From positions 1-64,000 of IMG/VR virus record IMGVR_UViG_3300044675_005311: 64,000 bases of DNA. One strand, 5' to 3'. The notes below the pieces were generated by a model. It did not search any database and was not told the DNA's origin. It worked only from the letters and a program-made list of their open reading frames with translations. Shown here one piece after another: positions 13,195 to 34,602 of the stretch. Made by a program: the position numbers and the translations under genes. Every line of letters starts with the position of its first letter. The first letter of the stretch is position 1. Origin of the DNA: a virus.

Positions 13195-13199
13195 CACCT

Positions 13200-18237: not shown

Positions 18238-21200
18238 ATGGTTAAAAAATATTTAAAGGGTGGCAAAAGCGAGGGTATGTCGCTAAGTGAAGTTGCAAAA
18301 GTTCACAATATGAATGCCGAGCAATTAAGACCCCAACTTCAAAAGGGAATTAAGCACGAACTTGAACACACGGACAAGATAACCGATGCACGAAGAATTG
18401 CCCTAGACCATTTGGTAGAGTTCCCCGATTATTACGACCGCTTGGATAAGATTGAAAAGATGCACTTGGGCGGTGATATGTCAAAACACTTAGCACCCAA
18501 CGGGAAACCTAGTAACCTTACACACGAGCAATGGCACTTGGTACGCACACCCGAATTTAAGAATTGGTTTGGGGATTGGGAAAACGACCCAAAGAACGCG
18601 AGTAAGGTTGTAGATGATAATGGTGAGCCGTTAGTGGTTTATAGAGGGGATAATGCCAATGCTAAAAAAGGATTTGTTTTCAAAACGGGTTTCAATAGAA
18701 TGGGATTTATTAATAAAGATAGATTGCCTAATCAATATTTCCATTATTTTGTAAACAACTATGATGTGGCTTTAGGTTATGGGCAAAATCAAATAGAAAG
18801 CCATAACGAAAAAGTTGAGGAAACGGGGAAAGGTAAATTGTGGGAAGCAAAAGTGACACCTTACTTTTTAAATATTCGGAATCTAATAGATATTACGCCT
18901 AATAATCCATCATTTCCCACTTTTAAAGAATTTGAGAATGAATTAAAAAATGAAATGGGGGAAGAGTGGTTTCAACATTGGAAATATCAACACCCTTATA
19001 ATTATGGAACACGAATAAGCAATAGTTATTTGAATAAATTGTTTGAAGACAAGTTGGGTAAAGATTATTTAGAAGATAGGTACATTTCTAAATGGCAAAA
19101 GGAAGGATTCGCAAATAATAAAACAAATAAAGATTCATATGAATTTTTTATTGAATTTAAAAATAGGAGTTCTTCTAGCGATATTCTTAATAAAGTAGTT
19201 CGTAGTATGTTAGAAAAGAATGTTGATGGTCTTGTGTTTTTGGAATTAACTCATTGGGATGGTGGATTTTGGGGCAATTATAAAAAATATGAATCGGGGG
19301 AATTAAAATATGATTACAAAAGATGGATAGAAAAGCCAAAAGTGTTTGCGACTTTAAATTCCAATCAAATCAAGTTAGCCGATGGCACGAACACTACATT
19401 CGATGGTGAGAACCTCGATATTAGATATAAGCGTGGTGGACGCACAATATCGCAAACACCCGCACCCAAGTCGGATAGAGTCGTTGGTAGCAAAACAAAC
19501 CCAAAAGGGAGTGCTAGTGATAGTAAACTAGGGAAATCAATTAAGTTCAACGATAGCCTAGAAAAAGCCATCCAAAACAAAGTGGATGCGTATAACGAAA
19601 AGCATTCGAGCGACAAAGTGAGTTTGTCAACGGCTAAAGCGATTGTAAGGCGCGGTATGGGTGCATATTCGACATCACATAGACCAACCATAAGCGGAGG
19701 TGCGCCTAATAGTCGCCAAGCGTGGGGATTGGCTAGATTGAATAAGTTCTTGCTAAAAAAGGCGGGAGTGAAAGTGAAAAGTGCTTATATTCAAGATGAT
19801 GATTTGTTGAAGTACGCCAATGGTGGCGAAGTAGTCGCAAAAAATGAGGATATTCGTAGTAATTTTAATACAATGGACAAAGAAGTAAAACACACTATGG
19901 GAAAAGCGGGTGGCTATTTAGTTGGTCGTCGTCACACCGAAGGCGGTATAAAGGCAATGAACAAAGCAACGGGACAACCTTTGGAAATGGAGGGCGGTGA
20001 AGTTGTAATCACGCGCAATGCCGTGTCGGATTCAAAGACGAGAGAGTTTGAAGGGCAAATGCTAACAAACCGCGAAATTTTGTCAAAAATCAACGAGAGT
20101 GGTGGTGGTGTTTCTTTTGAAGACGGCGGTGAGGTGATGGTATGTGGCAACCAATACAACTATGGGGGTACTCTTATGTCCGACCACGATATATTGCATC
20201 AAATGGCCGTTGGTGGCGAATTAGATGATATGAATGAAATGGAGTTTGAGTATGGCGGTGATGTATCGGATTTCAAACTAAAGAATAAGATTGTATTTCC
20301 AATCAACGATGTAGATAGCGCATATTATGTAAACATTTTTGAAGACCCTATGGACTTACAAATATTTAAGGTTGATGTAAGCGTTAGAGGTAGTGGAAGA
20401 CCTATTTTTAAGGGATTTACAAAATGGTCAAAAGATGAGTTCGTATCGAAGAGAAGTTATCAATTCTACAACCGAAAAGATTTTTTGACTCTCATTGAAC
20501 CGCAGGCGCAGACTTATGGGGTGATAACTCCAAGACCATTTACCCAAATACCAAAAAAATCTATGCTTATACCTAGGATGCCAAATACGAGGGCTATGTA
20601 TGATAGGTTTACTTCAATTTTGGACGTTGGGATGCAAAATGTGCCATCTCAATATAATACCGACGCTAAAACTAAATTTAATTGGCTTCTTGGTAATCCT
20701 ACTTTCCAAGAGAATATTATCGAGTTTTTTGATGAGTGGGCAATACAAGAGCCGAACTTTATTTATGAAGAGGGTGTCAAAAAGAAAGTTGTCCGCGCTA
20801 AAAAAGAAGATAAGTTCCAATATGGTATTGAGTCTATAAAGTTTGGTAAAAGTTGGGAGGATGAATTGAAGCCTTACAACAATAAACTTGTAAAGAATGA
20901 TGGTCAAAATTCATTGGTAAATTTACTTACAAAAGTAATTAAAGAATTTTATCTAACCGATTTAACTAATCCTAATTTAAAATTATATGAAGATAGGACG
21001 ATGGAAATACCCGTAAAAGAATTATCATTAATTCAAAAAAATGGGGGTGTTAAAATGGATTATGGTATAACGGCGGTTGGTTTGCGTAATATAGAAATGA
21101 GAACCACCGACCCCACAAGAAATAAATTACTTAATAAAAAATCGGGTTACAATATTAAATTAGTCATAGATAATATTGAAGATTTAGGTGGCGCAAATAT

Positions 21201-22908
21201 TTATTACTACCTATTTGATAAAATGGGTTATCAATATGGTAGCGGGGAATCTACTTGGCAACAATGGTTTAAAAATGACAATATTGATTTTAACATAAAA
21301 CTTTCTTTGGATGACTATTGTAGGGTGGTTGGGTATCTTTTGGCTAGATATTGTTATGAAAATGATTTACCCTCTATAAGACCAATATACAATATATCCG
21401 AAGAGCCTTTGATGATTGAGGATGTAAAAAATGTATTGGAATTTGATGACACGGATTTAAACGTATATCAAGGGAGTCAATTTGGAGCGTGGCTTGCCAT
21501 TTGTGTGCTTTATTATAGAGCCAATTATGTGAGCCAAACATCAAAGGCTAAAACGAGCGCGGATGTCCGTATTGCCCAAAGTTTGAAAGTTGGTGATAAG
21601 GTTGAAATTTCCGAGCAAGAAATGAATGCAATTGGTTTTGATGGATTAGATGAGAATGGCGAATTGTTGAAAGGAGAGGTAATTGGAATCCGTTCCGTAC
21701 CCGCAATGATGCGACCCGTAAATCCCGAAGGCAAAATGTACACGATTCGGTATTATGTACAAGACCCCAATGGGACTCTTAAAAACGATTGGGAGGGCAA
21801 AGATTTGGTATTGCTAGAGCCTAGTGATGTTGTACAATTGGAAGGAGAGCCAACGAGTACTAAAAAACAACCCGTTGGTAAAAACAAAAAAGCCTTGGGT
21901 AACTTGAGTGAGTTGGATAAAAATATTTACGACTTGCAATATCTTATTTCAATGACTTCGGATTTTGACTTTGAGGTAAAGTTACAATTACGTCAACAAT
22001 TGACCGAGTTCCAAAAGTTGAAAGATATTATGTATGCTTCCGAAAATTCCGAACAATTGATGAAGACTACAAGTCCTAATTATGACGGCAAATACGCGGT
22101 CGCCATTATTGAAACGATGTTTAATGCCGATAGTATCACGCTAGATGAAAGACCCAACTATTCACTTCCTAAAGCGGATGGATTTCAACCCAATGGCAAC
22201 GAAACTTTATTGAATCAAACCAACTTCAATCTTATTCAAACACCAATGTTCAAAGAGTGGTTCGGTGATTATTTGAATGCGTATGATTTCAAAGGATTGA
22301 GCGGTTATGATAATATCATTCCCGTAAGTAAAACATTGACGGATGGGTATGAGCCATTGGTCGTTTATCAAGGATTAGGGAGGGTGTTTGAAAGACAAAG
22401 GTTTGACTCTTTCCCAACTTCTTATTTTGCGGTGAATCCCAATTATGCGGAATGGTTTGCAACTACAAAAGGACAACGCACTCAAACCGATGGGTATGTG
22501 CTACCTTTCTTTTTGAATGTTAGAAACCCTTTAGATTTTACCTATTTTGGAATTGACAAAGTAGCACCGAAAGACTTCTTTGATTACCTATTTGTCAAGA
22601 CGGGTCAAACACCCGAACAACTAGGATTTGATGCTAGGTTCTTGCAACCAAATGTGCCACCGATGGAAATATGGGCATATATTAGAAACTCCCCAAATGC
22701 AATTACGGCTATTGCAAAGCAAGGTATTTACGATGGATTTCATTTTTATGAAAATAACCCACAAGCGAGTGGCAATCAATATCAAACCGAAGTATGGACT
22801 ACGTTCTTTTCAAATCAAGCAAAACTTGCAAGTGACCAACGAAGCAAAATGTTATATTCCGCCAACCAAGGTTTCTTAATGGCTAAAGGAGGCTTAGTAA
22901 AAAAATAA
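18238..22908 (+). CDS. 1556-aa polyvalent protein: DUF5661-like, ART-PolyVal x2, DUF5824-like and other modules separated by xxxGG linkers
   Basis: GIKHELEHT..IALDHL..PDYY; PNG...FKNWFGDW...SKVVDDNGEPLVVYRG and PNG...FKEWFGDY...EPLVVYQG; RRGMGAY..SHRP...WGLARLNKF; GRRHTEGGI...EMEGGE. Confidence 0.8.
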   Translation: MVKKYLKGGKSEGMSLSEVAKVHNMNAEQLRPQLQKGIKHELEHTDKITDARRIALDHLVEFPDYYDRLDKIEKMHLGGDMSKHLAPNGKPSNLTHEQWHLVRTPEFKNWFGDWENDPKNASKVVDDNGEPLVVYRGDNANAKKGFVFKTGFNRMGFINKDRLPNQYFHYFVNNYDVALGYGQNQIESHNEKVEETGKGKLWEAKVTPYFLNIRNLIDITPNNPSFPTFKEFENELKNEMGEEWFQHWKYQHPYNYGTRISNSYLNKLFEDKLGKDYLEDRYISKWQKEGFANNKTNKDSYEFFIEFKNRSSSSDILNKVVRSMLEKNVDGLVFLELTHWDGGFWGNYKKYESGELKYDYKRWIEKPKVFATLNSNQIKLADGTNTTFDGENLDIRYKRGGRTISQTPAPKSDRVVGSKTNPKGSASDSKLGKSIKFNDSLEKAIQNKVDAYNEKHSSDKVSLSTAKAIVRRGMGAYSTSHRPTISGGAPNSRQAWGLARLNKFLLKKAGVKVKSAYIQDDDLLKYANGGEVVAKNEDIRSNFNTMDKEVKHTMGKAGGYLVGRRHTEGGIKAMNKATGQPLEMEGGEVVITRNAVSDSKTREFEGQMLTNREILSKINESGGGVSFEDGGEVMVCGNQYNYGGTLMSDHDILHQMAVGGELDDMNEMEFEYGGDVSDFKLKNKIVFPINDVDSAYYVNIFEDPMDLQIFKVDVSVRGSGRPIFKGFTKWSKDEFVSKRSYQFYNRKDFLTLIEPQAQTYGVITPRPFTQIPKKSMLIPRMPNTRAMYDRFTSILDVGMQNVPSQYNTDAKTKFNWLLGNPTFQENIIEFFDEWAIQEPNFIYEEGVKKKVVRAKKEDKFQYGIESIKFGKSWEDELKPYNNKLVKNDGQNSLVNLLTKVIKEFYLTDLTNPNLKLYEDRTMEIPVKELSLIQKNGGVKMDYGITAVGLRNIEMRTTDPTRNKLLNKKSGYNIKLVIDNIEDLGGANIYYYLFDKMGYQYGSGESTWQQWFKNDNIDFNIKLSLDDYCRVVGYLLARYCYENDLPSIRPIYNISEEPLMIEDVKNVLEFDDTDLNVYQGSQFGAWLAICVLYYRANYVSQTSKAKTSADVRIAQSLKVGDKVEISEQEMNAIGFDGLDENGELLKGEVIGIRSVPAMMRPVNPEGKMYTIRYYVQDPNGTLKNDWEGKDLVLLEPSDVVQLEGEPTSTKKQPVGKNKKALGNLSELDKNIYDLQYLISMTSDFDFEVKLQLRQQLTEFQKLKDIMYASENSEQLMKTTSPNYDGKYAVAIIETMFNADSITLDERPNYSLPKADGFQPNGNETLLNQTNFNLIQTPMFKEWFGDYLNAYDFKGLSGYDNIIPVSKTLTDGYEPLVVYQGLGRVFERQRFDSFPTSYFAVNPNYAEWFATTKGQRTQTDGYVLPFFLNVRNPLDFTYFGIDKVAPKDFFDYLFVKTGQTPEQLGFDARFLQPNVPPMEIWAYIRNSPNAITAIAKQGIYDGFHFYENNPQASGNQYQTEVWTTFFSNQAKLASDQRSKMLYSANQGFLMAKGGLVKK

Positions 22909-22911
22909 ATT

Positions 22912-25308
22912 ATGTTACTAGATAAAAACAATATCGAGTCGGCTATCGTATCGTACACCCTTGATGGGTTTTCAATGACGGCGAAAGTATGGACTTATGA
23001 CAACAAGGCTACAATTTTTGTTCTTGACAAAGACGCAAAGTATAATCAAGACTTTTACTATGTCCTCAAGGGCGGTGCGCCCGATGCGGGAACTAGCGTT
23101 GAATCACTAAATGCCGAGGTATTTAGCAATCCATTTGATGCGTATAATAGGTTTCAAGATTTATTGAATGAGCAAGATTCTCAAACGCCACCACCGCCAC
23201 CACCACCCGAAGACCAAAAGATACCAATTATCTTAAAGACCAAAAAGACCAACGAATTTGAAATTCGCGAAGTTAATGGTTTAATGGAGGTCGGTGATGA
23301 TGTCTTGGGTAATGGATTTATTCAAGAAGACAAAAAAATAAATTTCAAAAGTGAAGATGTTTTTGAAACTCAAATTTTTATTGCGGGGGAATCTACGGAG
23401 GCGATATTAATTAAAGCACCTCAATTAGATACTAATGGTAAGGATGCTTATTTTCTTATCCCAAAACAACCACAACCGCCCGAACCACAAACAATACTTC
23501 TTAAAAACCCTACTACGAACGAAGTTCAACTTAGAGAGGTGAATGAGAGTGGCGTTGTCGGTACTCAAAATATGGGTAATGGTTTCATTGTTGACCCTAC
23601 CCTAATTAACCTTGCTAGTGAGGACACGTTTACAACTCAATTGTACGTTGGGGGACAACCTATGGATGTTACGTTGATTAGAAATGCGTCGATGGACACA
23701 AATGGTATGGATGCTTATGTGATGTCACAATCACCACCACCACCACCACCACCGCCAAAACAAACTATTGTATTAAAGAATCCTACTACCAACGAAGTTC
23801 AACTTAGAGAGGTTGATGAAAATGGTGTAGTGGAAAGTCAAAATATGGGTAATGCTTTCATTGTTCAACCAATGAGGATGGACTTAGCAAGTGAGGACAC
23901 GTTTACTACTCAATTATATTTTGCGGGACAACCGATGGATGTTAATTTAGTTAGAAACGCATCATTTGACACGGATGGTATGGATGCCTATATGATGTCC
24001 GAAACACCACCACCCGAAGAGAAAAATGTAATTCTAAAAAACCCTCTTACAAATGAAGTTCAAATTCGTGAGGTCGATGATAACAATGTCGTAAGTAACC
24101 AAATCAAAGCAAACGGATTTTTACTAGCACCAAGTCGCGTTAATTTAAGTAGCGACCCCACTTTTCAAACTCAATTGTATGTAAATGGACAACCAAGCGA
24201 TGTAGAATTGGTTAGAACGCCATCGTTCGACACCGATGGTATGGATGCTTATTCAATATCCGCAACTCCTCCACCCGAAGAGAAAAATGTAATTCTAAAA
24301 AACCCATTATCAAATCAAGTCCAAATTCGCGAGGTAGATGATAACAATGTCGTTAGCAATCAAATCAAAGCAAACGGATTTATCGTTCAAAATGGAGTTA
24401 TGAGATTGGCTAGCGAGAATCAATTTGACACTCAATTGTATATCAATTCACAATCCAATGATGTCAAGTTGGAAAGAACGCCATCGCTTGACACCGATGG
24501 TATGGATGCCTATCTTGTAGCAAGCAATGAAAAAACTAGCATTATCTTAAAAAATCCCGCCACTAATGAAGTTCAAATTAGGGAAGTTGATGAAGATGGT
24601 AATGTTACAAATGAAATTTTGGGTAATGGATTTATCGTACAACCAATGAGAACACCGCTTGTTAGTGAAGATGAATTTGACACCCAATTATATATCAATG
24701 GTCAATCTAGTGATGTAAAATTGATTAAATCTTCGTCGTTTGATACCGATGGTTTGGATGCTTATCTTATCGAAGGTGATGGTGAGCCGAAAGAGAAAAA
24801 GCGTACAATTTTATTGAAAGATAAAACAACGAATGAGGGTCAATTTAGGGAATTACAAGAAGATGGCGAGATAGGTAATGATATTTTAGCACAAGCATTT
24901 ATTACCCAACCAAACCGAATGAATCTTGCAAGTGAAGACCGATTTGAAACGCAATTGTATGTGCAAGGTGAAACTTTGGAAGCGGTTTTAATCAAAAATA
25001 CACTTTACGACAAAGATGGTATGGATGGTTATTCGGTTATGGTAGAGGGAGATAAAAAAGACCCTACGGGGAAAAGTGGAGGCCCTCCACCCGATATTGA
25101 AAATGAAATTTTAAGCGATAGGGTTCGTATTATAAGTGAAGTAAGTGGTATTGACCAAGATATAGTAAAAAATAACTTTAGAAATGTTAATTTAGCGGTG
25201 AATTTCTTATCGGGAATAAATTTCAAAGAATTGCAAAATCGTTTGAACACCGACAAGACCGCATACCAATTAGCGCAAGAGGTTGCACAAGAAATAAGAA
25301 ATTCGTAA
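22912..25308 (+). CDS. 798-aa protein with 7 tandem ~85-90-aa beta-rich repeats and Pro linkers
   Basis: Repeat consensus IILKNPxTNEVQIREVDx...NGFI...L.SED.F.TQLY..GQ...V.L.R..S.DTDGMDAY. Confidence 0.85.
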   Translation: MLLDKNNIESAIVSYTLDGFSMTAKVWTYDNKATIFVLDKDAKYNQDFYYVLKGGAPDAGTSVESLNAEVFSNPFDAYNRFQDLLNEQDSQTPPPPPPPEDQKIPIILKTKKTNEFEIREVNGLMEVGDDVLGNGFIQEDKKINFKSEDVFETQIFIAGESTEAILIKAPQLDTNGKDAYFLIPKQPQPPEPQTILLKNPTTNEVQLREVNESGVVGTQNMGNGFIVDPTLINLASEDTFTTQLYVGGQPMDVTLIRNASMDTNGMDAYVMSQSPPPPPPPPKQTIVLKNPTTNEVQLREVDENGVVESQNMGNAFIVQPMRMDLASEDTFTTQLYFAGQPMDVNLVRNASFDTDGMDAYMMSETPPPEEKNVILKNPLTNEVQIREVDDNNVVSNQIKANGFLLAPSRVNLSSDPTFQTQLYVNGQPSDVELVRTPSFDTDGMDAYSISATPPPEEKNVILKNPLSNQVQIREVDDNNVVSNQIKANGFIVQNGVMRLASENQFDTQLYINSQSNDVKLERTPSLDTDGMDAYLVASNEKTSIILKNPATNEVQIREVDEDGNVTNEILGNGFIVQPMRTPLVSEDEFDTQLYINGQSSDVKLIKSSSFDTDGLDAYLIEGDGEPKEKKRTILLKDKTTNEGQFRELQEDGEIGNDILAQAFITQPNRMNLASEDRFETQLYVQGETLEAVLIKNTLYDKDGMDGYSVMVEGDKKDPTGKSGGPPPDIENEILSDRVRIISEVSGIDQDIVKNNFRNVNLAVNFLSGINFKELQNRLNTDKTAYQLAQEVAQEIRNS

Positions 25309-25325: not shown

Positions 25326-26717
25326 ATGGATAATCAATCAAACATAGCGAGATTAGAGGATTTGGCAAAAAATTCTCCCGTTCCTTTAGTTCGTGAACAA
25401 GCACAAAAAGAATTAGACAAACTTGCCTCCATAGGTAGCGTTCAAGTTCAATCCGTAAATGCGGGTGTAACGGGTTTAGACCCCGATGTACAAGCCGTTT
25501 TGGATGCCTTGAATATGGCCGTGCAAGGGGGTGGAGTAGCCAACATCAATGATATTCGCCAAGTCGTAATAGATGAGTTAGCAAAACGAAAAATCAATTT
25601 CAATGATTTGTCCGATAGCCTTAAAGCATTGCTTAATTCTACTCGTAAAGTAGAATTGACCATTCGTAATATTGCCTCGGTTCAAACTACCACAACGACA
25701 AGTAATGATTTCTTGACGCGTCCTATCATTCAAAAGATTTTGAGTGATATGCAAGCGGAGAACAACGTGTATTTGTATGGTGGCGCGGGTACGGGAAAGA
25801 CATTTAGTGCGGGGGGTATTGCCAAATTGTTGGGTTGGTCAATCATTACAATCAATTGTAACCAATTTACATCGCCAATTGATATTATCGGTGGTCAAAC
25901 CATTGATGGTTATCAAGAGGGTAAATTCACTATGGCGTGGTCGAATGAAATTATTGACGACAACGGCAATATGAAAAAAGTAGATGGTTGCGTATTGCTA
26001 TTGGATGAGTTGCCAAAAATTGACCCCAACACGGCGGGTTTGTTGAACGAAGGTTTAGCCAAAATCAAAGAATACGACTATGACCCGAATACGGGTACAC
26101 GAATTCCTCCAAGCATTTTGAATGGTAGGGGCGAGAGAAAATACTTGGGTAATTGTTTCATAATGGCTGCGGGTAACGTACCACTAAATACCATTGACCC
26201 CGATTACGAAGCCAACTTTAAGCAAGATTTGTCTTTGCAAGATAGATTCATCGGTAGTACATATAAAGTGTTTGTGGATTACTCTTATGAGTTTAGTTCA
26301 ATTATGAAAGGTTATGCGTTCATTTGGATTTTTGGCACAAAACTTCGTGAGGCTATCATTCGTTTGAATGCAACAAACCAAGCGTTTGTTTCTATTCGTT
26401 TGATGCAAAACTTAAAGGCTACTTATGATGTTTATCGTATTGAAAAAGAGAAAAATGATAAGGGTATGGCGACGACAATTACAAGCCCGAAAACAATCAT
26501 AGACTCTCTTAATACTTTCTTTGAATTGTTCAAACCATCCACCCGTTCCGCACTATTAGCCGAATTGGATATTGACGGATTTAAGCGCGTTGTAGCCGAA
26601 AAAGATAAAATGCCGTTTGACAAAAAAGCACCTGACTTTAACACCCCATCGGAGGTGCAAGAGGCACAACAAATGATTTCCAATTACGAAGCGACACAAC
26701 TTTCTAGAGTTATCTAA
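25326..26717 (+). CDS. MoxR/CobS-like AAA+ ATPase
   Basis: Walker A GGAGTGKT, Walker B LLLDELPK, sensor AAGN, R-finger QDRF. Confidence 0.85.
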   Translation: MDNQSNIARLEDLAKNSPVPLVREQAQKELDKLASIGSVQVQSVNAGVTGLDPDVQAVLDALNMAVQGGGVANINDIRQVVIDELAKRKINFNDLSDSLKALLNSTRKVELTIRNIASVQTTTTTSNDFLTRPIIQKILSDMQAENNVYLYGGAGTGKTFSAGGIAKLLGWSIITINCNQFTSPIDIIGGQTIDGYQEGKFTMAWSNEIIDDNGNMKKVDGCVLLLDELPKIDPNTAGLLNEGLAKIKEYDYDPNTGTRIPPSILNGRGERKYLGNCFIMAAGNVPLNTIDPDYEANFKQDLSLQDRFIGSTYKVFVDYSYEFSSIMKGYAFIWIFGTKLREAIIRLNATNQAFVSIRLMQNLKATYDVYRIEKEKNDKGMATTITSPKTIIDSLNTFFELFKPSTRSALLAELDIDGFKRVVAEKDKMPFDKKAPDFNTPSEVQEAQQMISNYEATQLSRVI

Positions 26718-28366
26718 TGGGATTTTTTAGTAGTTGGAGAGGCTTGCCCGTATTTTGTTGGGCGTATGACACGCCCGAAGCGTGGCAAGATGCGTTTGGC
26801 AAAGATTTGTATAAAGATAGAATAAAGGATTACTCTAAAGTTTATGATGCCGAAATAGCACCTATTCTTTTTGAAATGGGAATGAAGTTTAACTTGGGTG
26901 GTGAGCAAGACAAAAGTCGTCTTGAAACAACATCAAGGCCCATAGGTGTATTTGATTTTTCGTTGGCGAGTAAAGGACTATATCGTGTTCAAGAATATTA
27001 CTCTCAAGAACTTGCCATAGACCATCCCAATTTATTTGATACATTTGAATTGCCGTCGGGAATTGTGCCACCCAATTTAGTCGACAATATTACGATAGGC
27101 GGTGTTAAGAATTTTGTTTATAACCACAATGGTAAAATGTATGTTCTTGACAAAAGGCAAAAAGGCACAACCGCTATCAATGATGGAGAAAAAGATGCTA
27201 AATTAAAATTTGCCACATCTACTAAAGACGTTTATTTGAAATTTAAACGTGTTGGTGGTAAAGTAAAGTATGCGGAAATTTATTCTTTATTTTACTATAC
27301 AAGCCTTGATGGTAATGATGAATTTGCTATAAGACACCTACCCGCATTGATGACGGCCGAATACTTTGAAAGTATGGGTATTAAGACACGTGTTTATATG
27401 ACAAGATTTTGCAACCCCGAAGAAACGGGTACATTACGTCAAAATGATTTGCTAACAAATGCCGAGTTACCTATGTACACTCAACAAGTAAATTATAGTG
27501 GCTCGTCGCGATTTGACGACGAGATTATTTTCGCACCGATTATAGTTAAAGATTTTGGTCAAGAACTCGATTGGAAGTCTTGTTTAGTGGTTAGTCAAAA
27601 TGACTCGCACGCAATTTACGATGGCGTAGTAAAGAATATGTTGAGGAACGAAATTGATGGTAGAATTATTTCACCTTATGGTAGCCCCGACCAAACTCAA
27701 GAAAGATATCTAGAAGCATTTGCAAGGTACAAGGAGAAATACCAATTGTATGTAAAAGCGGGGATTTGGAAGAGTAAAGAAATTCAAGAGGACTCTCAAT
27801 TATTGTTTCACTCACAAAGTATTAGACGACATTTGTCGGATGTTAGGGATAGTATGCAACGCGCATACTCCAATAATAATAAAAATCAAGTACGAAGGTG
27901 GAAAGACATTCTTGAAGGAAGCGTAGTTGCAAGAACTTTTTTTGAATGGTGGATGAAAACCGCTGCGGGTCGTTGTCGTGACACCCTTATGATTATGAAT
28001 GCAAAAGAGCCACGCAAAGAAATGCAAAAGGTCATTGATGAATTAAAGGCTAGAATTGATGACATTAATTCTTATTTGCTAATTGTTGTTCCTCAAACCT
28101 ATGCAACTAATAATGCGAAAAATGATTTAGAGAAAGAAATTGCTAGAATAATAGTCCAAAATGATTTCGTTAAAGAAATTCTTCAAAGTGAGGGATTGAT
28201 GATGGATTTTAATGGAGAATACAAATATGAAACCTATTTGAACCGAATTATTACCGACGCTACTACCTATGCGAGTAACCCTTTGTTTGCAACCGATGAT
28301 GATACGATAGAGCGATTGAATGAAAGAGCGGATTTATTGTATAACGACATTAAGTTAAGGAGTTAA
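26717..28366 (+). CDS. hypothetical protein, probable partner of the AAA+ ATPase (possibly degenerate VWA/CobT-like)
   Basis: 549-aa ORF coupled by TAATG; no clear DxSxS MIDAS seen. Confidence 0.5.
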   Translation: MGFFSSWRGLPVFCWAYDTPEAWQDAFGKDLYKDRIKDYSKVYDAEIAPILFEMGMKFNLGGEQDKSRLETTSRPIGVFDFSLASKGLYRVQEYYSQELAIDHPNLFDTFELPSGIVPPNLVDNITIGGVKNFVYNHNGKMYVLDKRQKGTTAINDGEKDAKLKFATSTKDVYLKFKRVGGKVKYAEIYSLFYYTSLDGNDEFAIRHLPALMTAEYFESMGIKTRVYMTRFCNPEETGTLRQNDLLTNAELPMYTQQVNYSGSSRFDDEIIFAPIIVKDFGQELDWKSCLVVSQNDSHAIYDGVVKNMLRNEIDGRIISPYGSPDQTQERYLEAFARYKEKYQLYVKAGIWKSKEIQEDSQLLFHSQSIRRHLSDVRDSMQRAYSNNNKNQVRRWKDILEGSVVARTFFEWWMKTAAGRCRDTLMIMNAKEPRKEMQKVIDELKARIDDINSYLLIVVPQTYATNNAKNDLEKEIARIIVQNDFVKEILQSEGLMMDFNGEYKYETYLNRIITDATTYASNPLFATDDDTIERLNERADLLYNDIKLRS

Positions 28367-28384
28367 AAAATATAATTAAACACT

Positions 28385-28696
28385 ATGGAAATTACCCAAG
28401 TACAAGAATTAGGATTAAAAAAGTTGATGGCAAATATTGCCACATTTTCTAATCTATATGGTAGCATTACCAATTTGATGATAATGACCAACCCAAGTTT
28501 TTCCACATCAATTTTTGTGAAATATGATAAGCAATTTGGATTGGTAAAAGATAGAAGGCTAGAAATAAACATTGTCGAAATAAACGATAGGGGTGAAATT
28601 GTGGTTTTGAACGATGTATTTAAAGGGATATATGAGCGGTACACATTCTTAGGTGAGTGCTTACCGATTGAAGCAAACGAACTAATTGTAATGTAA
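28385..28696 (+). CDS. hypothetical protein
   Basis: 103-aa ORF coupled to the next gene. Confidence 0.7.
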   Translation: MEITQVQELGLKKLMANIATFSNLYGSITNLMIMTNPSFSTSIFVKYDKQFGLVKDRRLEINIVEINDRGEIVVLNDVFKGIYERYTFLGECLPIEANELIVM

Positions 28697-30480: not shown

Positions 30481-30484
30481 ACCG

Positions 30485-33400
30485 ATGAAAGAATCAATAA
30501 AAAAGAAGTTCGACTCTATCGACAAATCAAAAATAAAGGTAGAATCAACAAAAGAATTTTTAGGAAAACTTGAGAAAGGACTCAATAGTAAAACACAAGA
30601 AAATGCTGACAAGGCGGAAGCATTGCTAGACAAATTCATTGCCCAAGCAAAGGCAAAGAACGCGGATATTTTCGTATCTAATAAGCCCGCACCTACACTT
30701 ACACCTACCGCTAAGAAAAAGGCCAACCAAGTCGTTAAAAGCAAATTGGATTCCCTTATGGACACCATTGCTAATGACCCGTTGTTGAAGGACTTTAACA
30801 ACTCGCGTAGGACAAAAGGCGGTGGAAAGAGCGACCCATTGATTGATAGCGAAAGAAAGGCTATTCAAAGTGGCCCTAGGATATCTAAGCAAGGTTGGAA
30901 GAACCAATATGGTAAAAGCACGGGTGGTCGTAAGTACTACGAGTACCGCGAAAACCGCATTGATAGAAAAGCACCAAATTACGGAAGTAGGCCGTGGCTA
31001 AAAGAGGGCGGATTCATTCACCCTAGCGATGCCAATGCCGACAAATACGTCGTGGTTGAAATCAAAGCGGATGGTTCAAGAAGAGAACACAACCATTTCG
31101 GTGATTTGGAAACGGCTAGGATGTTTGCGTCATTGAAGCGTGAGTTTTTACCAAAGGGTAGCCAATTGATGATTGAGGACAAAAACGGAAAGAATTTGTA
31201 TCGTAGTTTCAAGAGTGGTGGCTATATGGCCGATGGTGGAATGATGGCTAAAGGTGGTGTAATTGAGGAGGGTGATGATGTTTTTGTAAAACCCGAAAAA
31301 TTGAATGCGGAAGTAGTTCGTATTACGGGGGAAAATGTTGTAGTAGAATTTTATAATAGAAGACCCGAAGGTGGTGAGAAGAGAGGGAATTATAAAATTA
31401 AAGACCTTAAAAAGATGGCCAATGGTGGTATGATGGCAAAGGGTGGAAAGGCTTATTATTTAAAGCCTCAGGAGAATATTGACAAGTTGTTTGAGCGTCA
31501 GAAAAAACGACTCGCTGATATGAAACGAAATGATGACCAATTGATGTTGTTGCAAGGCATAAATTACTTAAATAAAAAAAATGATGAAGATGAAGAAAAG
31601 TATGTCATTTTGTTTTTTGAGTCTGAAACACCATTTACTCGATTTGATTTAGAGTATCATAGAGAAAAATTAATCAAATTAGGGTATTTAGCAGATATAG
31701 ATGAAACATATTTGGTAACACCGAAAGGTGAAGAGTATTTAAAACAACATAATGAAAAAGAGTTGGCGAGAAAAATGGCCAATGGTGGAATGATGGCCAA
31801 AGGTGGTGTAATTGAGGAGGGTGATGATGTTTTTGTAAAACCCGAAAAATTGAATGCGGAAGTAGTTCGTATTACGGGGGAAAATGTTGTAGTAGAATTT
31901 TACGATAGAAGACCCGAAGGTGGTGAGAAGAGAGGAAATTATAAAATTAAAGACCTAAAGAAATTGGCCAATGGTGGTATGATGGCCGATGGTGGCAAAG
32001 TTAGATGGCAAGATGTTTATGTTGGTGACAACGCATTGGTGATAGCCGAAAACAAGATGGGTATGGTAGTGAAGCCTTATGGCCGTAGATTCCATTTGAA
32101 GTTCCCCGATGGTTCGGAAAAAACCTATTCGGCGGAAGAGTTGGAGTTTTTCAAGGATGAGGAATTTGCCAAAGGTGGTTATACCAACAAACGAAATGTA
32201 CTTAGTTTGGTTGTCAAAAACCCAAATAAGAATGGGATTAAAAAATATTTGTCTATTAATCCAAAAGACTTTTTAGATGGATTGCACGAATATGCCAAAG
32301 GTGGTAAATTAACCGATGATTATACTTACATCAAGCGTAGCGAAGTTGAACACGTCATATATCGCGATAGCAATGGTAAAGAGCAATTAGATTTCAAACC
32401 CAAGAATGGATTTTGGGTAAGCAAAAAGGCACTTGTTGATGCGGGTATGAATGAAACAAAAGCCAAGTTTGATGCTAAAGAGGTTGCCAACGAATTAACT
32501 GCTTTATCCAACAAAGCGTGGGACACTTTATCAATTCAAAGCGGAAGTGAAATTTATGCCTCCGACGATTTGCAAGAGAATTTAGCCGATGAATATCGAA
32601 AAGTAGGTATTGATAAAATTTACGGACAACTTACCCAACCCGAACGCAAAAAAGTAAGCGCGGTACTTACCGATGAGAACGAGCATAGTTTGAGAAACTA
32701 CCTTGCGTTACGCGGTTATAATGGCGAAGCGGAATTTAAGAATTATGCAAAAATGTACGACGAGTCATTTGCAAAATTTGGATATAGGTCAAATTGGAAT
32801 CCCAAAAATGTAGATTTAAAACTTGGGTCATTTGCCAAAGGTGGTATGATGACCGATGATGAAGGAAATTCAATTAATTTAAAAGTTGGAGATAAAGTTG
32901 TTGAATACAAAAGACCAAGTTCGGATAAACCGAAAAAACAATATGGTGGTCAAGGTGAGATAATTTCAATTAATGGCGCAATGGCTAAAGTATTTTTTGA
33001 TTCAACGAACTATGAAAAATTTTATCCTTTGAAAGACCTTAAAAAGATGGCTAATGGTGGAATGATGGCCAAAGGCGGGACTATTGCCGATGGAGAAAAA
33101 CTACCCGAAGATATGGGTAGGTACTTTATCAAGACTAGCAAGACCAAAGTGGTGAATATGTCCGATTTGATTCCGTTGCGCAAACGTGCTACGGGTATCG
33201 CTAATGCCGAGAAAAATATGAAGATGGCTTACGATGGAGAAATGGATAAGCGTAAGCCTATCACTATCTACAAGAGCCAACGCAAGTATCGCATAATGGA
33301 TGGTAACTCTACCTATGCGGTTGCAAAAGCAAACGGATGGGAAACCATTTGGGCCGAGATTGTCAAGAACCCCAATATGAAAAACGGACTTAAACGCACC

Positions 33401-33487
33401 GATGATATTTTTTCAAGAGCAAAATCAATTCGTAAAGAAGGAGAGGCTTGGAAAGATGCGTTACAACGTGCAAAAGCAATGAAATAA
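30485..33487 (+). CDS. 1000-aa modular polyprotein (SH3/KOW-like, ParB-like and other modules) punctuated by MA(K/N/D)GG linkers
   Basis: About 15 hydrophobic-x-x-GG motifs; GD.V...G.V modules; RKPITI...YRIMDGNSTY ParB-like module. Confidence 0.8.
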   Translation: MKESIKKKFDSIDKSKIKVESTKEFLGKLEKGLNSKTQENADKAEALLDKFIAQAKAKNADIFVSNKPAPTLTPTAKKKANQVVKSKLDSLMDTIANDPLLKDFNNSRRTKGGGKSDPLIDSERKAIQSGPRISKQGWKNQYGKSTGGRKYYEYRENRIDRKAPNYGSRPWLKEGGFIHPSDANADKYVVVEIKADGSRREHNHFGDLETARMFASLKREFLPKGSQLMIEDKNGKNLYRSFKSGGYMADGGMMAKGGVIEEGDDVFVKPEKLNAEVVRITGENVVVEFYNRRPEGGEKRGNYKIKDLKKMANGGMMAKGGKAYYLKPQENIDKLFERQKKRLADMKRNDDQLMLLQGINYLNKKNDEDEEKYVILFFESETPFTRFDLEYHREKLIKLGYLADIDETYLVTPKGEEYLKQHNEKELARKMANGGMMAKGGVIEEGDDVFVKPEKLNAEVVRITGENVVVEFYDRRPEGGEKRGNYKIKDLKKLANGGMMADGGKVRWQDVYVGDNALVIAENKMGMVVKPYGRRFHLKFPDGSEKTYSAEELEFFKDEEFAKGGYTNKRNVLSLVVKNPNKNGIKKYLSINPKDFLDGLHEYAKGGKLTDDYTYIKRSEVEHVIYRDSNGKEQLDFKPKNGFWVSKKALVDAGMNETKAKFDAKEVANELTALSNKAWDTLSIQSGSEIYASDDLQENLADEYRKVGIDKIYGQLTQPERKKVSAVLTDENEHSLRNYLALRGYNGEAEFKNYAKMYDESFAKFGYRSNWNPKNVDLKLGSFAKGGMMTDDEGNSINLKVGDKVVEYKRPSSDKPKKQYGGQGEIISINGAMAKVFFDSTNYEKFYPLKDLKKMANGGMMAKGGTIADGEKLPEDMGRYFIKTSKTKVVNMSDLIPLRKRATGIANAEKNMKMAYDGEMDKRKPITIYKSQRKYRIMDGNSTYAVAKANGWETIWAEIVKNPNMKNGLKRTDDIFSRAKSIRKEGEAWKDALQRAKAMK
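31226..31986 (+). repeat. Near-identical 212-bp direct repeat (31226-31437, 31775-31986) within the polyprotein gene
   Basis: Offset 549 bp; both copies encode MAxGGMMAKGGVIEEGDDVFVKPEKLNAEVVRITGENVVVEFY.RRPEGGEKRGNYKIKDLKK.ANGGMMA. Confidence 0.95.
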
Positions 33488-34602
33488 TGAAACTATTTAC
33501 TAAAGCCGACCAAACACTACTACAAAGCCAATGGGGTTTCGGAAGTGACCTTAAATCCCAAATGGTGTTTGTTAAAATATTCGAGCCTATGCGTAGGGTG
33601 TTTTACTATGTAGTGAACCAAGACCCGAACGACCCCGAAAAGATATTCGCGCTAGAAAAAAGCAATAAGGATGTCAAGTTGGGTTTCTTTCGCAAGAGTG
33701 CTATCGAGAATGCCAAATTACCGCCTTACGGATTGCGATTTGAACGCGATATGTATTTCAAGCCCGTTTCCGCCCAAGAGTTGTTGGACGGCTTGATAGA
33801 GGGTAAGTATTACGCTAAGGGCGGTGAAATCGTTGTGGACATAAACGAAAAGGTGTACGACAAAGGAAATTACAAAGCAATATTCGGTGACTTCGATAAG
33901 GATGGTGTTCCTAACGTAGATGACCCAAACCCGTATAGAAGCGGGGATGAAAAGTCAATCGAGCAAGTTAGGTTTAGCAAAGTTTTCGCCAAGGTGTTAG
34001 ACACCAAGATGCAAATGGATAGGCCAATGTATGACATTGTTGAAAAACTAAAAACAATAGCGCCCAAGGGTTCTAAAATTATCGCTAGGACAAAAACACC
34101 TTTTAGCATATTGAATAAGTTGGTCAACAAAAAAATGAATAACATCGAGCCTAGTATAGCGGGTGACGTGGATGGTTTGACCGACCTAGTGGGAACTACA
34201 ATCCTAGTAAGCAATTTCCGTTCACTTGACTCTTTGAAGAACAAAATTCTCAAAGGCGCAATAGGGCAAATATTGGAGTTCAAAGATTATTACGCACATC
34301 CAAAAGCGGGGTATATGGCTTACCACTTTATTACTCTTTTCGAGGGCGTGGCGATAGAAGTTCAAATTAAGACCAAGCGTATGAAACTTTTGAACCAAGC
34401 GTCACACTTTGCCTACAAGGAAGAAACATTGGATGCAAAGAAGTTGTTGTACTACTCTCAAGTGATGGATAGAGCCGATAAAGGTGATAGAGAAGCCATT
34501 CAAGAAGCGAACGATATATTAAGGGATAGGGACAAACTTGCGTATGATTTTTTCATAAACAAGGCGGAGTATAACCCAAAGAAGCATATTTTTGAAGATT
34601 AA
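33487..34602 (+). CDS. DUF2958-like domain + YAKGG linker + RelA/SpoT-type nucleotidyltransferase (small alarmone synthetase-like)
   Basis: KLGFF...GLRFERDMYF; RTKTPFSILNK, TDLVG, KDYYAHPKAGYMAYH, EVQIKT; ATG 33487 via TAATG. Confidence 0.8.
   Translation: MKLFTKADQTLLQSQWGFGSDLKSQMVFVKIFEPMRRVFYYVVNQDPNDPEKIFALEKSNKDVKLGFFRKSAIENAKLPPYGLRFERDMYFKPVSAQELLDGLIEGKYYAKGGEIVVDINEKVYDKGNYKAIFGDFDKDGVPNVDDPNPYRSGDEKSIEQVRFSKVFAKVLDTKMQMDRPMYDIVEKLKTIAPKGSKIIARTKTPFSILNKLVNKKMNNIEPSIAGDVDGLTDLVGTTILVSNFRSLDSLKNKILKGAIGQILEFKDYYAHPKAGYMAYHFITLFEGVAIEVQIKTKRMKLLNQASHFAYKEETLDAKKLLYYSQVMDRADKGDREAIQEANDILRDRDKLAYDFFINKAEYNPKKHIFED

What the first reader, a model, noticed from the sequence alone, without database searches (positions are those of the whole stretch)
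18238..34602. Cargo polyproteins punctuated by hydrophobic-x-x-GG linkers
Seen: domain boundaries in three large proteins coincide with a [MFYL]-x-x-G-G motif. In 18238: YLKGG, MHLGG, YKRGG, YANGG, FEDGG, YNYGG, MAVGG, FEYGG and a terminal MAKGG. In 30485: about 15 copies (LKEGG, FKSGG, MADGG, MAKGG, MANGG, FAKGG, YAKGG). In 33487: one YAKGG exactly between the DUF2958-like and RelA/SpoT regions. It also occurs in membrane proteins 39061 (MASGG) and 49408 (YANGG). Established: adenovirus and ASFV proteases cut virion precursors after Gly-Gly motifs. Inference: these are packaged polyproteins cut at, or targeted to the particle by, xxxGG sites to deliver a set of effector domains at infection, a eukaryotic-virus-style strategy in a bacterial virus.
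Basis: partly seen in the sequence, partly recalled or inferred. Interest (0 to 1): 0.85.

Follow-up and report, generated by a model that had tools for sequence, protein, structure and literature searches.

The report
Junction tag in viral multi-effector proteins
Three large proteins of an uncultured, apparently tailless bacterial virus are strings of small modules, each ending in the same short peptide (hydrophobic-Ala-Lys-Gly-Gly), which is probably a signal for cutting or loading these proteins, though neither has been shown.

Summary
The tight form [MFYL]-A-x-G-G occurs 17 times in 2,940 aa of the three ORFs against 4 in 19,648 aa elsewhere in the genome.

The full consensus is K-Φ-A-[K/D/N]-G-G-x-[I/V/L/T/M]. 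It sits in low-confidence linkers between folded modules. It marks where modules are exchanged among more than 120 homologues.

It is not just a linker:
- It is conserved as a C-terminal tag, followed by two residues and the stop codon, on two unrelated protein families in 5 of 5 related genomes.
- It is conserved in a small membrane protein.
- Polyvalent proteins of other phages lack it.

Cutting and packaging are not shown. No adenain-like protease was found. The only protease lead is an HExxH protein at 46778-47566, conserved in 5 of 5 genomes and supported by that motif alone.

Best reading: a lineage-specific signal read in trans, most likely a processing site. Docking without cutting is the main rival. 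Unchecked notes from this scan report analogous junction peptides, with other sequences, on other phage DNA.

The parts
18238..22908 (+). Polyvalent protein A (1556 aa). Modules: DUF5661, ART-PolyVal, a DUF5824-like module, a conserved H-x-x-GG-I module, a long motif-free middle, and a C-terminal ART-like module. It ends in the tag MAKGG-LVKK-stop. The nine motifs lie at nt 18250-18264, 18460-18474, 19426-19440, 19813-19827, 20116-20130, 20155-20169, 20203-20217, 20245-20259 and 22879-22893.
   Evidence: Pfam: DUF5661 54.9 bits (cut-off 27); ART-PolyVal 46.1 bits (cut-off 31.2).
30485..33487 (+). Polyvalent protein B (1000 aa). It has ten modules of 37-175 aa separated by 15 motifs (single, double and one triple), and the C-terminal module has a ParB/Srx fold. 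Motifs lie at nt 30998-31012, 31208-31258 (triple), 31415-31447, 31775-31807, 31964-31996, 32165-32179, 32291-32305, 32831-32845 and 33047-33079.
33487..34602 (+). Polyvalent protein C (371 aa from the ATG at 33487; a TTG at 33448 is also open). It has a DUF2958-like module, then YAKGG at nt 33811-33825, then a RelA/SpoT nucleotidyltransferase module.
   Evidence: RelA_SpoT scores 50.7 bits (cut-off 27). In loci L017 and L018 the RelA/SpoT module is embedded between two motifs.
39061..39432 (+). Small membrane protein (123 aa): an Ala/Pro/Gln-rich N-terminus, MASGG at nt 39193-39207, then a transmembrane helix. M-A-x-G-G is kept at this place in 4 of 5 distinct relatives.
   Evidence: L003 has MAHGG plus MIEGG; L005/L007 (identical sequences, one relative) MAQGG plus MAEGG; L006 MAQGG plus MVEGG; G003 MADGG; L019 only YGDGG.
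25326..28366 (+). Conserved gene pair that lies between the A-type and B-type genes in all 11 relatives reaching that far: an AAA+ ATPase (CobS/MoxR-like, 25326-26717) and an unknown 549-aa protein (26717-28366) with an invariant K-[L/F]-x-L-G-G near residue 60. Any link to the motif is unproven.
46778..47566 (+). Candidate zinc metallopeptidase (262 aa) in the particle-gene block. The stretch A-I-L-[L/C]-H-E-F-S-H-F-Y has every residue but one invariant. E203, E205 and D207 downstream are invariant in the four-genome alignment. It is the only HExxH present in all five genomes. This is motif-level evidence only.
   Evidence: No Pfam or PDB-sequence support.

Best explanation
A, B and C are polyvalent (multi-effector) proteins of an uncultured virus lineage of about 66-85 kb that appears to be tailless. 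Each module ends in one heptapeptide, K-Φ-A-[K/D/N]-G-G-x-Φ.

Shown: the peptide lies in flexible linkers. It is the point at which modules are exchanged between genomes. It is also kept as a C-terminal tag on two otherwise unrelated protein families and inside a small membrane protein, and it is confined to this lineage.

Inferred: it is a signal read in trans. Most likely it is the recognition site of a virus-encoded endopeptidase that cuts the strings into separate modules, and trims the tagged proteins, during particle maturation or after entry. The best candidate enzyme is the conserved HExxH protein at 46778-47566. The position of the cut, after G-G or before the hydrophobic residue, is unknown. 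Recombination at the conserved joint then supplies the variety of module combinations.
For: 1. Enrichment and specificity. The tight motif is 17 in 2,940 aa versus 4 in 19,648 aa. In 16 distinct related loci found with patterns that do not contain the motif, it is concentrated in 0-3 ORFs per locus. Six of those loci, four of them holding only a ParB-like match, have none.

2. Linker position. All 15 motifs of B fall in or at the edge of pLDDT<50 stretches between confident modules.

3. Module borders. Cutting 123 proteins at the motif gives 214 segments of 0-1 aa (tandem motifs) and otherwise domain-sized pieces, median 61 aa. Of the BLAST pairs between segments, 41,157 cover at least 75% of both partners and 17,444 do not. 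Of 40,261 HSP ends, 55% lie within 5 aa of a motif, against 16% for random positions. Identity to B jumps from module to module, for example P0007 at 97/96/100/67/89/97%.

4. Stronger conservation than a spacer needs. The motif glycines are among the invariant or nearly invariant columns of a 53-protein alignment: G606, G607, A784, G786, G787 and G858.

5. Terminal tags. Of the 150 best hits in an index-free HMMER scan with A's C-terminal module, 124 end in Φ-x-x-G-G plus at most 6 residues, including 80 of the top 80. A second, unrelated family of about 290-366 aa ends K-Φ-x-x-G-G-x-Φ-stop in 5 of 6 genomes. In each of 5 genomes, exactly 2 of 90-118 ORFs carry such a tail. In this genome that is 2 observed against 0.15 expected (P=0.012).

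6. The motif is conserved in the 39061 membrane-protein family.

7. Lineage restriction. ART-containing proteins of other phages (1,740-1,926 aa) have 0-1 motif, as do the named Bacteroides and Flavobacterium phage homologues.

8. A conserved HExxH protein lies in the particle-gene block of 5 of 5 genomes.
Against: - No cleavage product and no virion content has been observed. Packaging is inferred only from gene position and from the published concept of polyvalent proteins.
- The HExxH protein matches no Pfam family at E<=0.1. One of four members hits Peptidase_M56 at E=0.2. There is no PDB sequence match. An HExxH word alone is expected by chance about once per proteome of this size (my estimate).
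- A tail of only two residues after G-G makes a cut after G-G look pointless. It fits a docking peptide better.
- Several modules are only 37-65 aa and of SH3/KOW/Tudor type. They may work as an intact string.
- Lys is the commonest residue after G-G (36 of 183). If the E. coli N-end rule (recalled) applies in the unknown host, that would be a destabilising N-terminus.
- No motif was conserved at aligned positions in the other core orthologues compared between G000 and G003. Of the 5 motifs in those orthologues, the 2 conserved ones were the AAA+ P-loop and the L-G-G of 26717. So there is no sign of general virion maturation at this motif.
Confidence: 0.42

Rival explanations
1. Docking or cargo-loading tag without cutting. 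The heptapeptide is a short linear motif bound by a common partner, such as the inner face of the shell, the internal membrane, or the conserved AAA+/26717 pair. This would resemble encapsulin cargo-loading peptides or the T4 capsid-targeting sequence. Modules that once carried the tag at their C-terminus were fused, so the tags now sit at every junction and add avidity.
For: - The tag is kept at the extreme C-terminus, with exactly two further residues in most cases, on two unrelated families.
- Many ART-type proteins carry only this one terminal copy, for example one GG in 489 aa.
- Tandem copies sit at a fixed spacing of six residues: 200 pairs and 8 triples among 1,432 motifs.
- The motif word follows the upstream module slightly better than the downstream one (same word in 0.25 versus 0.17 of comparisons).
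- A membrane protein carries the same motif.
Against: - No receptor has been identified.
- The internal copy in the membrane protein, and tags after modules of 37-56 aa, are not obviously needed for loading.
- A conserved candidate protease exists in the same genomes.
- Docking and cutting are not exclusive. By my recollection, the T4 targeting sequence is both.
Confidence: 0.27
2. Passive flexible linker that doubles as a recombination joint. A glycine hinge with a conserved DNA word (GCT-AAA-GGT-GG) gives microhomology for in-frame module swapping, and nothing reads it in trans.
For: - Module exchange does occur at the motif.
- Codon use inside the motif is skewed beyond the background of the same genes: Ala GCT 0.62 versus 0.34 (p=2e-13), first Gly GGT 0.73 versus 0.42 (p=7e-14), Lys AAA 0.95 versus 0.78 (p=6e-4).
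- AF2 gives the motif no fixed structure.
Against: - It does not explain terminal tags conserved at 27-46% identity, where nothing is linked.
- It does not explain the conserved copy in a small membrane protein.
- It does not explain why junction residues are among the best conserved columns.
- Synonymous codons do vary, so selection acts on the peptide.
- The same genome uses poly-proline linkers in another repeat protein, 22912.
Confidence: 0.13
3. Internal translation starts. M-A-K with an A-rich lead would be a good start context, so the modules would be made separately.
For: - The second motif of a tandem pair usually begins with Met: MADGG or MAKGG in each of the 12 commonest pairs.
- GCT and AAA are favoured at the two codons after it.
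Against: Only 70 of 183 motifs begin with Met. Phe (52), Tyr (40), Leu (16) and Ile (5) cannot start translation at those codons. Terminal tags are followed by two residues and a stop.
Confidence: 0.03

Closest known systems
Polyvalent proteins of phages and conjugative elements (Iyer, Burroughs, Anand, de Souza, Aravind 2017, PMC5512222; I read the abstract and passages found by term searches)
   Same: Large phage proteins that string many effector and nucleic-acid-binding domains (ART, ParB-like, nucleotide-signalling enzymes) in highly variable orders. That paper proposes that they are delivered with the DNA and processed by peptidases, chiefly zincin-like metallopeptidases.
   Different: No peptidase domain lies inside A, B or C. 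The candidate zincin is a separate gene. A defined junction/terminal heptapeptide is not described there. The words 'linker', 'glycine', 'GG motif', 'boundar', 'disordered' and 'low-complexity' each occur 0 times in the main text. I could not see its supplements, which list architectures.
Adenovirus protease (adenain) and ASFV pS273R sites, (M/I/L)-X-G-G|X and G-G|X (recalled, not from a call)
   Same: A short site with a hydrophobic residue followed by G-G, repeated in precursor proteins of the virion.
   Different: No clan CE cysteine protease was detected. Here the hydrophobic residue is three, not two, residues before G-G, with Ala in between, and a hydrophobic residue two positions after G-G is part of the motif. 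Cutting is not shown.
Prohead-protease consensus sites of T4 (gp21, L/I-x-E) and phiKZ-like phages (S/A/G-x-E), and the T4 capsid-targeting sequence (recalled)
   Same: One short consensus shared by several internal or cargo proteins of one virus, read by a protease encoded among the structural genes. In T4, targeting and cutting are combined.
   Different: The chemistry (G-G) and position (module ends and C-termini rather than N-terminal propeptides) differ. The virus has no detectable HK97-type head genes.
Encapsulin cargo-loading peptides (recalled)
   Same: A conserved peptide of about 7-10 residues at the extreme C-terminus of unrelated cargo proteins.
   Different: No encapsulin or HK97-fold shell is detectable here. 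The motif sequence differs, and most copies are internal.
Demarcation motifs of polymorphic toxins (VENN of CdiA, DPxGL of Rhs; recalled)
   Same: A short conserved peptide marks the joint at which variable modules are swapped by recombination. In Rhs it is also a cleavage site.
   Different: The proteins are unrelated. Here there are many joints per protein rather than one, and the setting is viral rather than a bacterial secretion system.

Membership tests
Polyvalent proteins (Iyer et al. 2017) | One polypeptide of a phage or plasmid carrying several (2-15) distinct domains | tested here: met
   A has DUF5661, two ART-PolyVal stretches and further modules. B has ten motif-delimited segments of 37-175 aa. 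AF2 models six stretches of B with confidence.
Polyvalent proteins (Iyer et al. 2017) | Domains of the catalogued effector types (ART, ParB-like, nucleotide-signalling enzymes) | tested here: met
   ART-PolyVal scores 46.1 bits against a cut-off of 31.2, and RelA_SpoT 50.7 against 27. The C-terminal module of B matches sulfiredoxin, SbnI and ParB folds at probability 1.0, rmsd 2.2-2.7 over 79-81 columns.
Polyvalent proteins (Iyer et al. 2017) | Extensive variation of domain order among relatives | tested here: met
   The modules fall into 231 clusters. Nearly every homologue has its own architecture within a c1-c4 ... c3-c0 frame.
Polyvalent proteins (Iyer et al. 2017) | Built-in peptidase domain (zincin-like MPTase, assemblin-like, LonC) in many members | tested here: not met
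   A, B and C hit no peptidase family in Pfam, PHROGs or NCBIfam. A separate HExxH gene exists. This feature is frequent in the family but not obligatory.
Polyvalent proteins (Iyer et al. 2017) | Transfer into the host together with the DNA | not testable with these tools
   There is only positional evidence: the genes lie just upstream of the conserved particle-gene block.
Adenain / pS273R-type G-G maturation | Clan CE cysteine protease encoded by the virus | tested here: not met
   The Peptidase_C5 and Peptidase_C48 models gave 0 candidates in the genome. Pfam scans of 78 ORFs of this genome and of 82 ORFs of the complete relative G003 showed no such family. In some searches only the first 25 of 29 and of 67 matched families are visible. 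The genome is estimated 86% complete.
Adenain / pS273R-type G-G maturation | Site with the hydrophobic residue at P4 and G-G at P2-P1 | tested here: not met
   In 183 instances the hydrophobic residue is at the position that would be P5, and Ala (123 of 183) is at P4. The adenain consensus is recalled from memory.
Adenain / pS273R-type G-G maturation | Demonstrated cleavage products in the particle | not testable with these tools
   No proteomic data exist for this uncultured virus.
Double-glycine leader peptides with C39 peptidase exporters | N-terminal leader ending in G-G, plus a C39 peptidase-ABC transporter | tested here: not met
   The motifs are internal or C-terminal. No C39 family appears among the visible results of the Pfam scans (in 33 and 80 only the first 25 matched families are shown).
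Terminal cargo-loading / targeting peptides (encapsulin CLP, T4 CTS) | The same short terminal peptide on unrelated proteins of one particle | tested here: met
   Two unrelated families end in K-Φ-x-x-G-G-x-Φ-stop in 5 of 5 genomes. So do 124 of the 150 ART-module representatives.
Terminal cargo-loading / targeting peptides (encapsulin CLP, T4 CTS) | Binding of the peptide to the shell, or presence of the tagged proteins in particles | not testable with these tools
   No structure or proteome is available. I did not run a complex prediction because no partner could be named.
Structural-block protease with a shared site (T4 gp21, phiKZ gp175) | A protease gene conserved among the particle genes | tested here: inconclusive
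   46778-47566 has an invariant H-E-F-S-H with downstream acidic residues in 5 of 5 genomes. It has no family or structure match.

The most novel reading that the evidence does not exclude
A lineage of large, tailless, membrane-containing bacterial viruses uses a single heptapeptide code, K-Φ-A-K-G-G-x-Φ, read by its own zinc protease. The code both loads a modular arsenal of effector domains into the particle and cuts that arsenal into separate proteins. That would be a polyprotein strategy like those of adenovirus and ASFV, but evolved with a different enzyme in a prokaryotic virus. The same code would give residue-exact boundaries for more than 200 uncharacterised module families.
Probability: 0.25. 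Interest if true: 0.85.

Novelty: new variant of a known kind. Interest (0 to 1): 0.62.

Why it matters
Polyvalent proteins are thought to be a main way for phages and plasmids to bring anti-defence and takeover enzymes into a cell. Whether and where they are cut has stayed conjecture. Here the joints are marked by a defined peptide that can be searched for, mutated, or followed by mass spectrometry.

The peptide also parses hundreds of metagenomic proteins into 231 module clusters with exact ends. That is a ready-made parts list of small domains, most with no Pfam match, for expression and testing.

The conserved terminal tags suggest a portable signal that could be tried on reporter proteins. 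The setting adds interest: a group of 66-85 kb viruses with no detectable tailed-phage genes, of which one 100%-complete relative has inverted terminal repeats.

Unchecked notes from this scan report other phage lineages with their own junction peptides. If those hold, lineage-specific junction codes may be a general property of polyvalent proteins.

Tried and rejected
**Close relatives**
- Searching named phages for B and for the whole region found nothing.
- A gave only short module hits.
- A single-protein scan of viral contigs with B found nothing, and likewise with P0225.
- GTDB genomes hold only distant ParB-domain matches, so there is no host clue.

**Protease search**
- Peptidase_C48 and C5 models: nothing.
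- Pfam, PHROGs and NCBIfam on the genome's ORFs: no peptidase.
- Pfam on the complete relative G003: Peptidase_M15_3, a cell-wall type, is the only peptidase family among the 25 of 67 matched families shown.
- Profiles of 26717, 43039, 40884, the H-x-x-GG-I module of A, ATPase 41891 and the HExxH protein against PDB sequences: nothing significant.
- The ESM Atlas gave only a DUF7192 lead for 26717 and nothing for 43039.

**Coat-protein fold**
- The AF2 model of 43039 was poor (pLDDT 52). Foldseek returned only weak jelly-roll-type hits at E>=0.011. I do not claim the fold.

**Other checks**
- Raw HSP ends against B alone were too noisy to read. I replaced this with the module-wise and all-against-all analyses.
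- Motifs conserved between G000 and G003 in core orthologues outside the polyvalent and glycine-rich proteins: 2 of 5 motifs examined, the AAA+ P-loop and the L-G-G of 26717.
- The DUF5661 H-E-L-E-H is not a conserved HExxH; relatives read A-E-S-E-H or I-E-S-E-H.

**Literature**
- The strings MAKGG, YAKGG, FAKGG and MADGG gave 16 papers. None appeared relevant from the titles and abstract openings listed.
- 'phage, polyprotein, Gly-Gly, virion' gave 7 papers, none on phages.
- 'ART-PolyVal, DUF5661, polyvalent protein' since 2018 gave 95 papers, of which I saw 20 listed. None was about junction motifs by title or abstract.

I ran no complex prediction, sequencing-run search or read mapping.


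Full report
**Setting.** The window is the first 64 kb of a 72,652-bp virus record. The record is linear and CheckV estimates it 86% complete. The three ORFs of the finding are:
- A: 18238-22908, 1556 aa.
- B: 30485-33487, 1000 aa.
- C: 33448/33487-34602. Homologues begin M-K-L-F-T, which fits the ATG at 33487.

Pfam finds DUF5661 (residues 18-74) and ART-PolyVal (126-388, plus a second stretch) in A. It finds RelA_SpoT (214-326) and a weak DUF2958 in C, and nothing above cut-off in B. ART-PolyVal is the ADP-ribosyltransferase family defined for the 'polyvalent proteins' of Iyer et al. 2017 (PMC5512222).

- Residue shuffles of each protein expect 1.85 copies of the loose pattern in A (9 seen) and 1.41 in B (15 seen). 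The tight form [MFYL]-A-[KNDSV]-G-G is seen 13 times in B against 0.04 expected.
- Against the other ORFs of the same genome, the tight form [MFYL]-A-x-G-G is 17 in 2,940 aa versus 4 in 19,648 aa (odds ratio 28.6, p=3e-12). Twenty-five of 38 G-G dipeptides have a hydrophobic residue three before them, versus 27 of 144 elsewhere.
- Part of B's count is not independent. A 224-nt segment is duplicated at 94% identity and carries four of the copies.
- The loose pattern also has background. By the overlapping-match regex there are eleven hits in the glycine-rich ORF 60141. One search, which counts a GG run once, gives 4 for that ORF.

**Do the motifs sit at domain borders?**
- In A they flank DUF5661 (5-9 and 75-79) and follow the ART domain (397-401).
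- For B, I predicted the structure with a 53-sequence alignment (mean pLDDT 58). Confident modules are 1-100, 186-243, 505-558, 570-600, 609-779 and 871-1000. All 15 motifs lie in, or at the edge of, stretches with pLDDT below 50.
- Two of those stretches (244-460, 784-870) are weakly covered by the alignment and so say little. The seven junctions next to confident modules are informative.
- Foldseek assigns the C-terminal module to the ParB/sulfiredoxin fold and the small β modules to KOW/Tudor/SH3-like folds.
- Not every border is marked. A has an 873-aa stretch (675-1547) without a motif.

**The motif is a family-wide punctuation mark.**
- A search with B returned 215 homologues, 120 of them listed, all metagenomic and with mosaic coverage.
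- They carry on average 11.7 motifs each, and 83% of their G-G dipeptides are in the motif. The commonest words are MAKGG, MADGG, YAKGG and FAKGG.
- That search collects candidates by shared words, which could favour the motif. I therefore repeated the test on 21 viral-contig loci found with peptide patterns that do not include it. After removing duplicates, the motif is concentrated in 0-3 large ORFs per locus. Ten of the 16 distinct loci have such an ORF.
- Cutting 123 proteins at the motif yields 214 segments of 0-1 residues (tandem motifs) and otherwise domain-sized pieces, median 61 aa. Of the BLAST pairs between segments, 41,157 cover at least 75% of both partners and 17,444 do not. The segments fall into 231 clusters.
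- Architectures are beads on a string in almost endless orders, within a frame c1-c4 ... c3-c0.
- Identity to B changes abruptly from module to module, for example 97, 96, 100, 67, 89, 97% in P0007. One module is 92% identical inside proteins of an otherwise different architecture.
- In an all-against-all comparison, 55% of 40,261 HSP ends lie within 5 residues of a motif, against 16% for random positions (medians 4 versus 23).
- The two halves of C occur separately in other proteins, and the break is exactly at YAKGG. Its RelA/SpoT half sits between two motifs in long ORFs of L017 and L018.

**Anatomy of the motif.**
- From 183 instances in the window and the independent loci: Lys (61) before it; then Met 70, Phe 52, Tyr 40, Leu 16; Ala 123; Lys 75 or Asp 22; G-G; any residue; then Ile 46, Val 36, Leu 34, Thr 28, Met 21.
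- The unit is thus K-Φ-A-[K/D/N]-G-G-x-Φ. When it is repeated, the last hydrophobic residue is the first of the next copy. This explains the fixed period of six: 200 pairs and 8 triples among 1,432 motifs.
- Codons inside the motif are skewed relative to the same genes: Ala GCT 0.62 versus 0.34, first Gly GGT 0.73 versus 0.42, Lys AAA 0.95 versus 0.78. Synonymous variants do occur.

**It is more than a linker.** Four results argue that something reads the peptide.

1. The junction glycines are among the invariant or nearly invariant columns of the 53-protein alignment.

2. It is kept at protein ends.
   - A ends MAKGG-LVKK-stop. Orthologues at 27-46% identity end LEKGG-KI, LKSGG-TI, FEKGG-KI, FDLGG-IL or LEVGG-IIF.
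   - An index-free HMMER scan of 1.84 billion representatives with A's last 267 residues gave 612 hits. Of the best 150, 124 end in the motif plus at most six residues, including 80 of the top 80. Many of these have no other copy.
   - A second, unrelated family lies in the replication/recombination block near the genome end: L001:4495-5547(-), that is genome 68194-69246, outside the window. It ends K-FKRGG-EI-stop here, FKRGG-QV in G001, FKRGG-TI in G002 and LRKGG-II in G005. A positional counterpart in G003 ends LKLGG-KI. The G004 match lacks the tag.
   - In each of five genomes, exactly two of 90-118 ORFs end this way. In this genome that is 2 observed against 0.15 expected (P=0.012).

3. 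The small membrane protein 39061 keeps M-A-x-G-G between an Ala/Pro-rich N-terminus and its membrane helix in 4 of 5 distinct relatives. The fifth has Y-G-D-G-G.

4. The motif is confined to this lineage.
   - ART-bearing proteins of other viral contigs (1,740-1,926 aa) have 0-1 copy and none after the ART module.
   - The 3,634-aa protein of Bacteroides phage BF1-TP2 has one tight copy.
   - The Flavobacterium phage homologues have no tight copy, and at most one loose copy in 842 aa.

By contrast, the YANGG of 49408 is not conserved (NATGT or NATGG in homologues). It fits a different word, [FYW]-x-[NGS]-[AF]-[DNT]-G. I found that word in the coat candidate 43039 and in 43819, 46295 and 49994, but never in A, B or C. 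An earlier unchecked note of this scan had drawn attention to it.

**Who could read it?**
- No adenain- or Ulp1-type protease is detectable.
- No peptidase family appears in Pfam, PHROGs or NCBIfam scans of this genome.
- In the 100%-complete relative G003, Peptidase_M15_3 (a cell-wall type) is the only peptidase family among the 25 of 67 matched families shown.
- I screened the 43 ORFs that have homologues in at least three of four related genomes for invariant catalytic residues. This singled out 46778-47566 (262 aa) in the particle-gene block. Its stretch A-I-L-[L/C]-H-E-F-S-H-F-Y has every residue but one invariant. E203, E205 and D207 downstream are invariant in the four-genome alignment.
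- It is the only HExxH shared by all five genomes.
It is a lead, not an identified protease.
- Earlier unchecked notes of this scan on related genomes reached the same gene independently.
- A second lead is 35556-36134, with invariant His131 and S-H-G-C147. By my recollection this resembles the L,D-transpeptidase signature, and it is more likely a cell-wall enzyme.
- The AAA+ ATPase 25326 (CobS/MoxR-like) and the unknown 26717 protein lie between the A-type and B-type genes in all 11 relatives that reach that far. Their role is unknown.

**What kind of virus?**
- No portal, terminase or HK97-type capsid family was found in this genome or in G003.
- The conserved block holds a Walker-A ATPase (41891, about 75% identical in the closest relatives, with a weak HerA/DUF87 hit), a β-rich 233-aa protein (43039) and many small proteins with C-terminal membrane helices.
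- G003 has inverted terminal repeats.
- My model of 43039 was too poor to name its fold.
- Earlier notes of this scan call related genomes large tailless membrane-containing viruses. I agree with the gene content but did not confirm the folds.

**Reading.**
- Shown: the peptide is the universal module-end mark of a lineage-specific family of polyvalent proteins. It lies in linkers, it is the site of module exchange, and it is conserved where nothing is linked.
- Inferred: it is read in trans.
- I favour a processing site (0.42). Regular junction motifs in viral multi-domain proteins usually are cleavage sites, and a conserved candidate protease sits among the particle genes.
- A docking or cargo-loading tag without cutting (0.27) explains the two-residue C-terminal tails better.
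- A passive hinge and recombination joint (0.13) explains the shuffling and the codon skew, but not the terminal and membrane-protein copies.
- The roles are not exclusive. By my recollection, Rhs demarcation motifs and the T4 targeting sequence each combine two of them.

**Comparison and novelty.** These are members of the polyvalent-protein class. The defined heptapeptide, its terminal-tag form and its restriction to one tailless-type lineage are not in the papers I could search. I could not see the supplements of PMC5512222. The resemblance to adenovirus and ASFV is one of principle only, since both enzyme class and register differ. Unchecked notes of this scan report analogous junction peptides with other sequences in other phage lineages. 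That would make this one instance of a possibly general, so far undescribed rule.

Noticed in passing
window 46778-47566 (+): A 262-aa protein in the particle-gene block with an invariant H-E-F-S-H plus downstream acidic residues, present in 5 of 5 related genomes. It is a possible novel zincin and has no family or PDB-sequence match.
   Followed up: partly
window 39416-44834 and relatives G001-G005: The conserved block holds a PAP2-like protein, a Walker-A ATPase (41891), a β-rich 233-aa protein (43039) and many small proteins with C-terminal membrane helices. No portal, terminase or HK97 capsid family occurs anywhere. The 100%-complete relative G003 (72,545 bp) has inverted terminal repeats. 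This looks like a large tailless virus lineage of 66-85 kb. The fold of 43039 is not established (pLDDT 52).
   Followed up: partly
window 43039-43740 (aa 18 and 37), 43819-44217 (aa 81), 46295-46579 (aa 42), 49994-50785 (aa 32): A second short motif, [FYW]-x-[NGS]-[AF]-[DNT]-G, recurs in structural-block proteins and is absent from the polyvalent proteins. The YANGG of 49408 probably belongs to this class.
   Followed up: partly
L001:4495-5547 (-), that is genome 68194-69246, outside the window: A basic 350-aa protein beside the RecT and exonuclease genes, near the genome end, carries the C-terminal tag FKRGG-EI-stop. The tag is conserved in relatives. Because a relative has inverted terminal repeats, a terminal-protein role is conceivable but untested.
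   Followed up: partly
window 22912-25308 (+): A 798-aa protein made of about seven repeats of roughly 100 aa, most of them separated by proline-rich runs. This shows that the genome uses a different linker type outside the polyvalent proteins.
   Followed up: no
window 25326-28366 (+): An AAA+ ATPase (CobS/MoxR-like) and a 549-aa unknown protein (an Atlas lead points to DUF7192) always lie between the two polyvalent genes in relatives. The 549-aa protein has an invariant K-[L/F]-x-L-G-G near residue 60.
   Followed up: partly
window 60141-63326 (+): A 1061-aa glycine-rich protein with 64 G-G dipeptides and a weak YadA-head repeat hit. Three ORFs of G003 match it. It is probably a fibre or spike.
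   Followed up: no
window 35556-36134 (+): A 192-aa protein with invariant His131 and S-H-G-C147 in 4 of 5 genomes. It resembles the L,D-transpeptidase (YkuD) signature as I recall it, and it lies next to 36280-37038, a 252-aa protein with no family match.
   Followed up: no
window 5905-16014 and 16996-17068: A block of sugar-modification genes (glycosyltransferases, a nucleotide-sugar epimerase, a C-methyltransferase), and a tRNA-Met gene.
   Followed up: no
window 19810-20220 (A aa 525-661): A module with invariant G-G-x-x-x-G-x-x-H-x-x-G-G-I-K and E-x-x-G-x-E-V-x-I-T is conserved in A-type proteins of at least seven related loci. It has no family or PDB-sequence match.
   Followed up: partly
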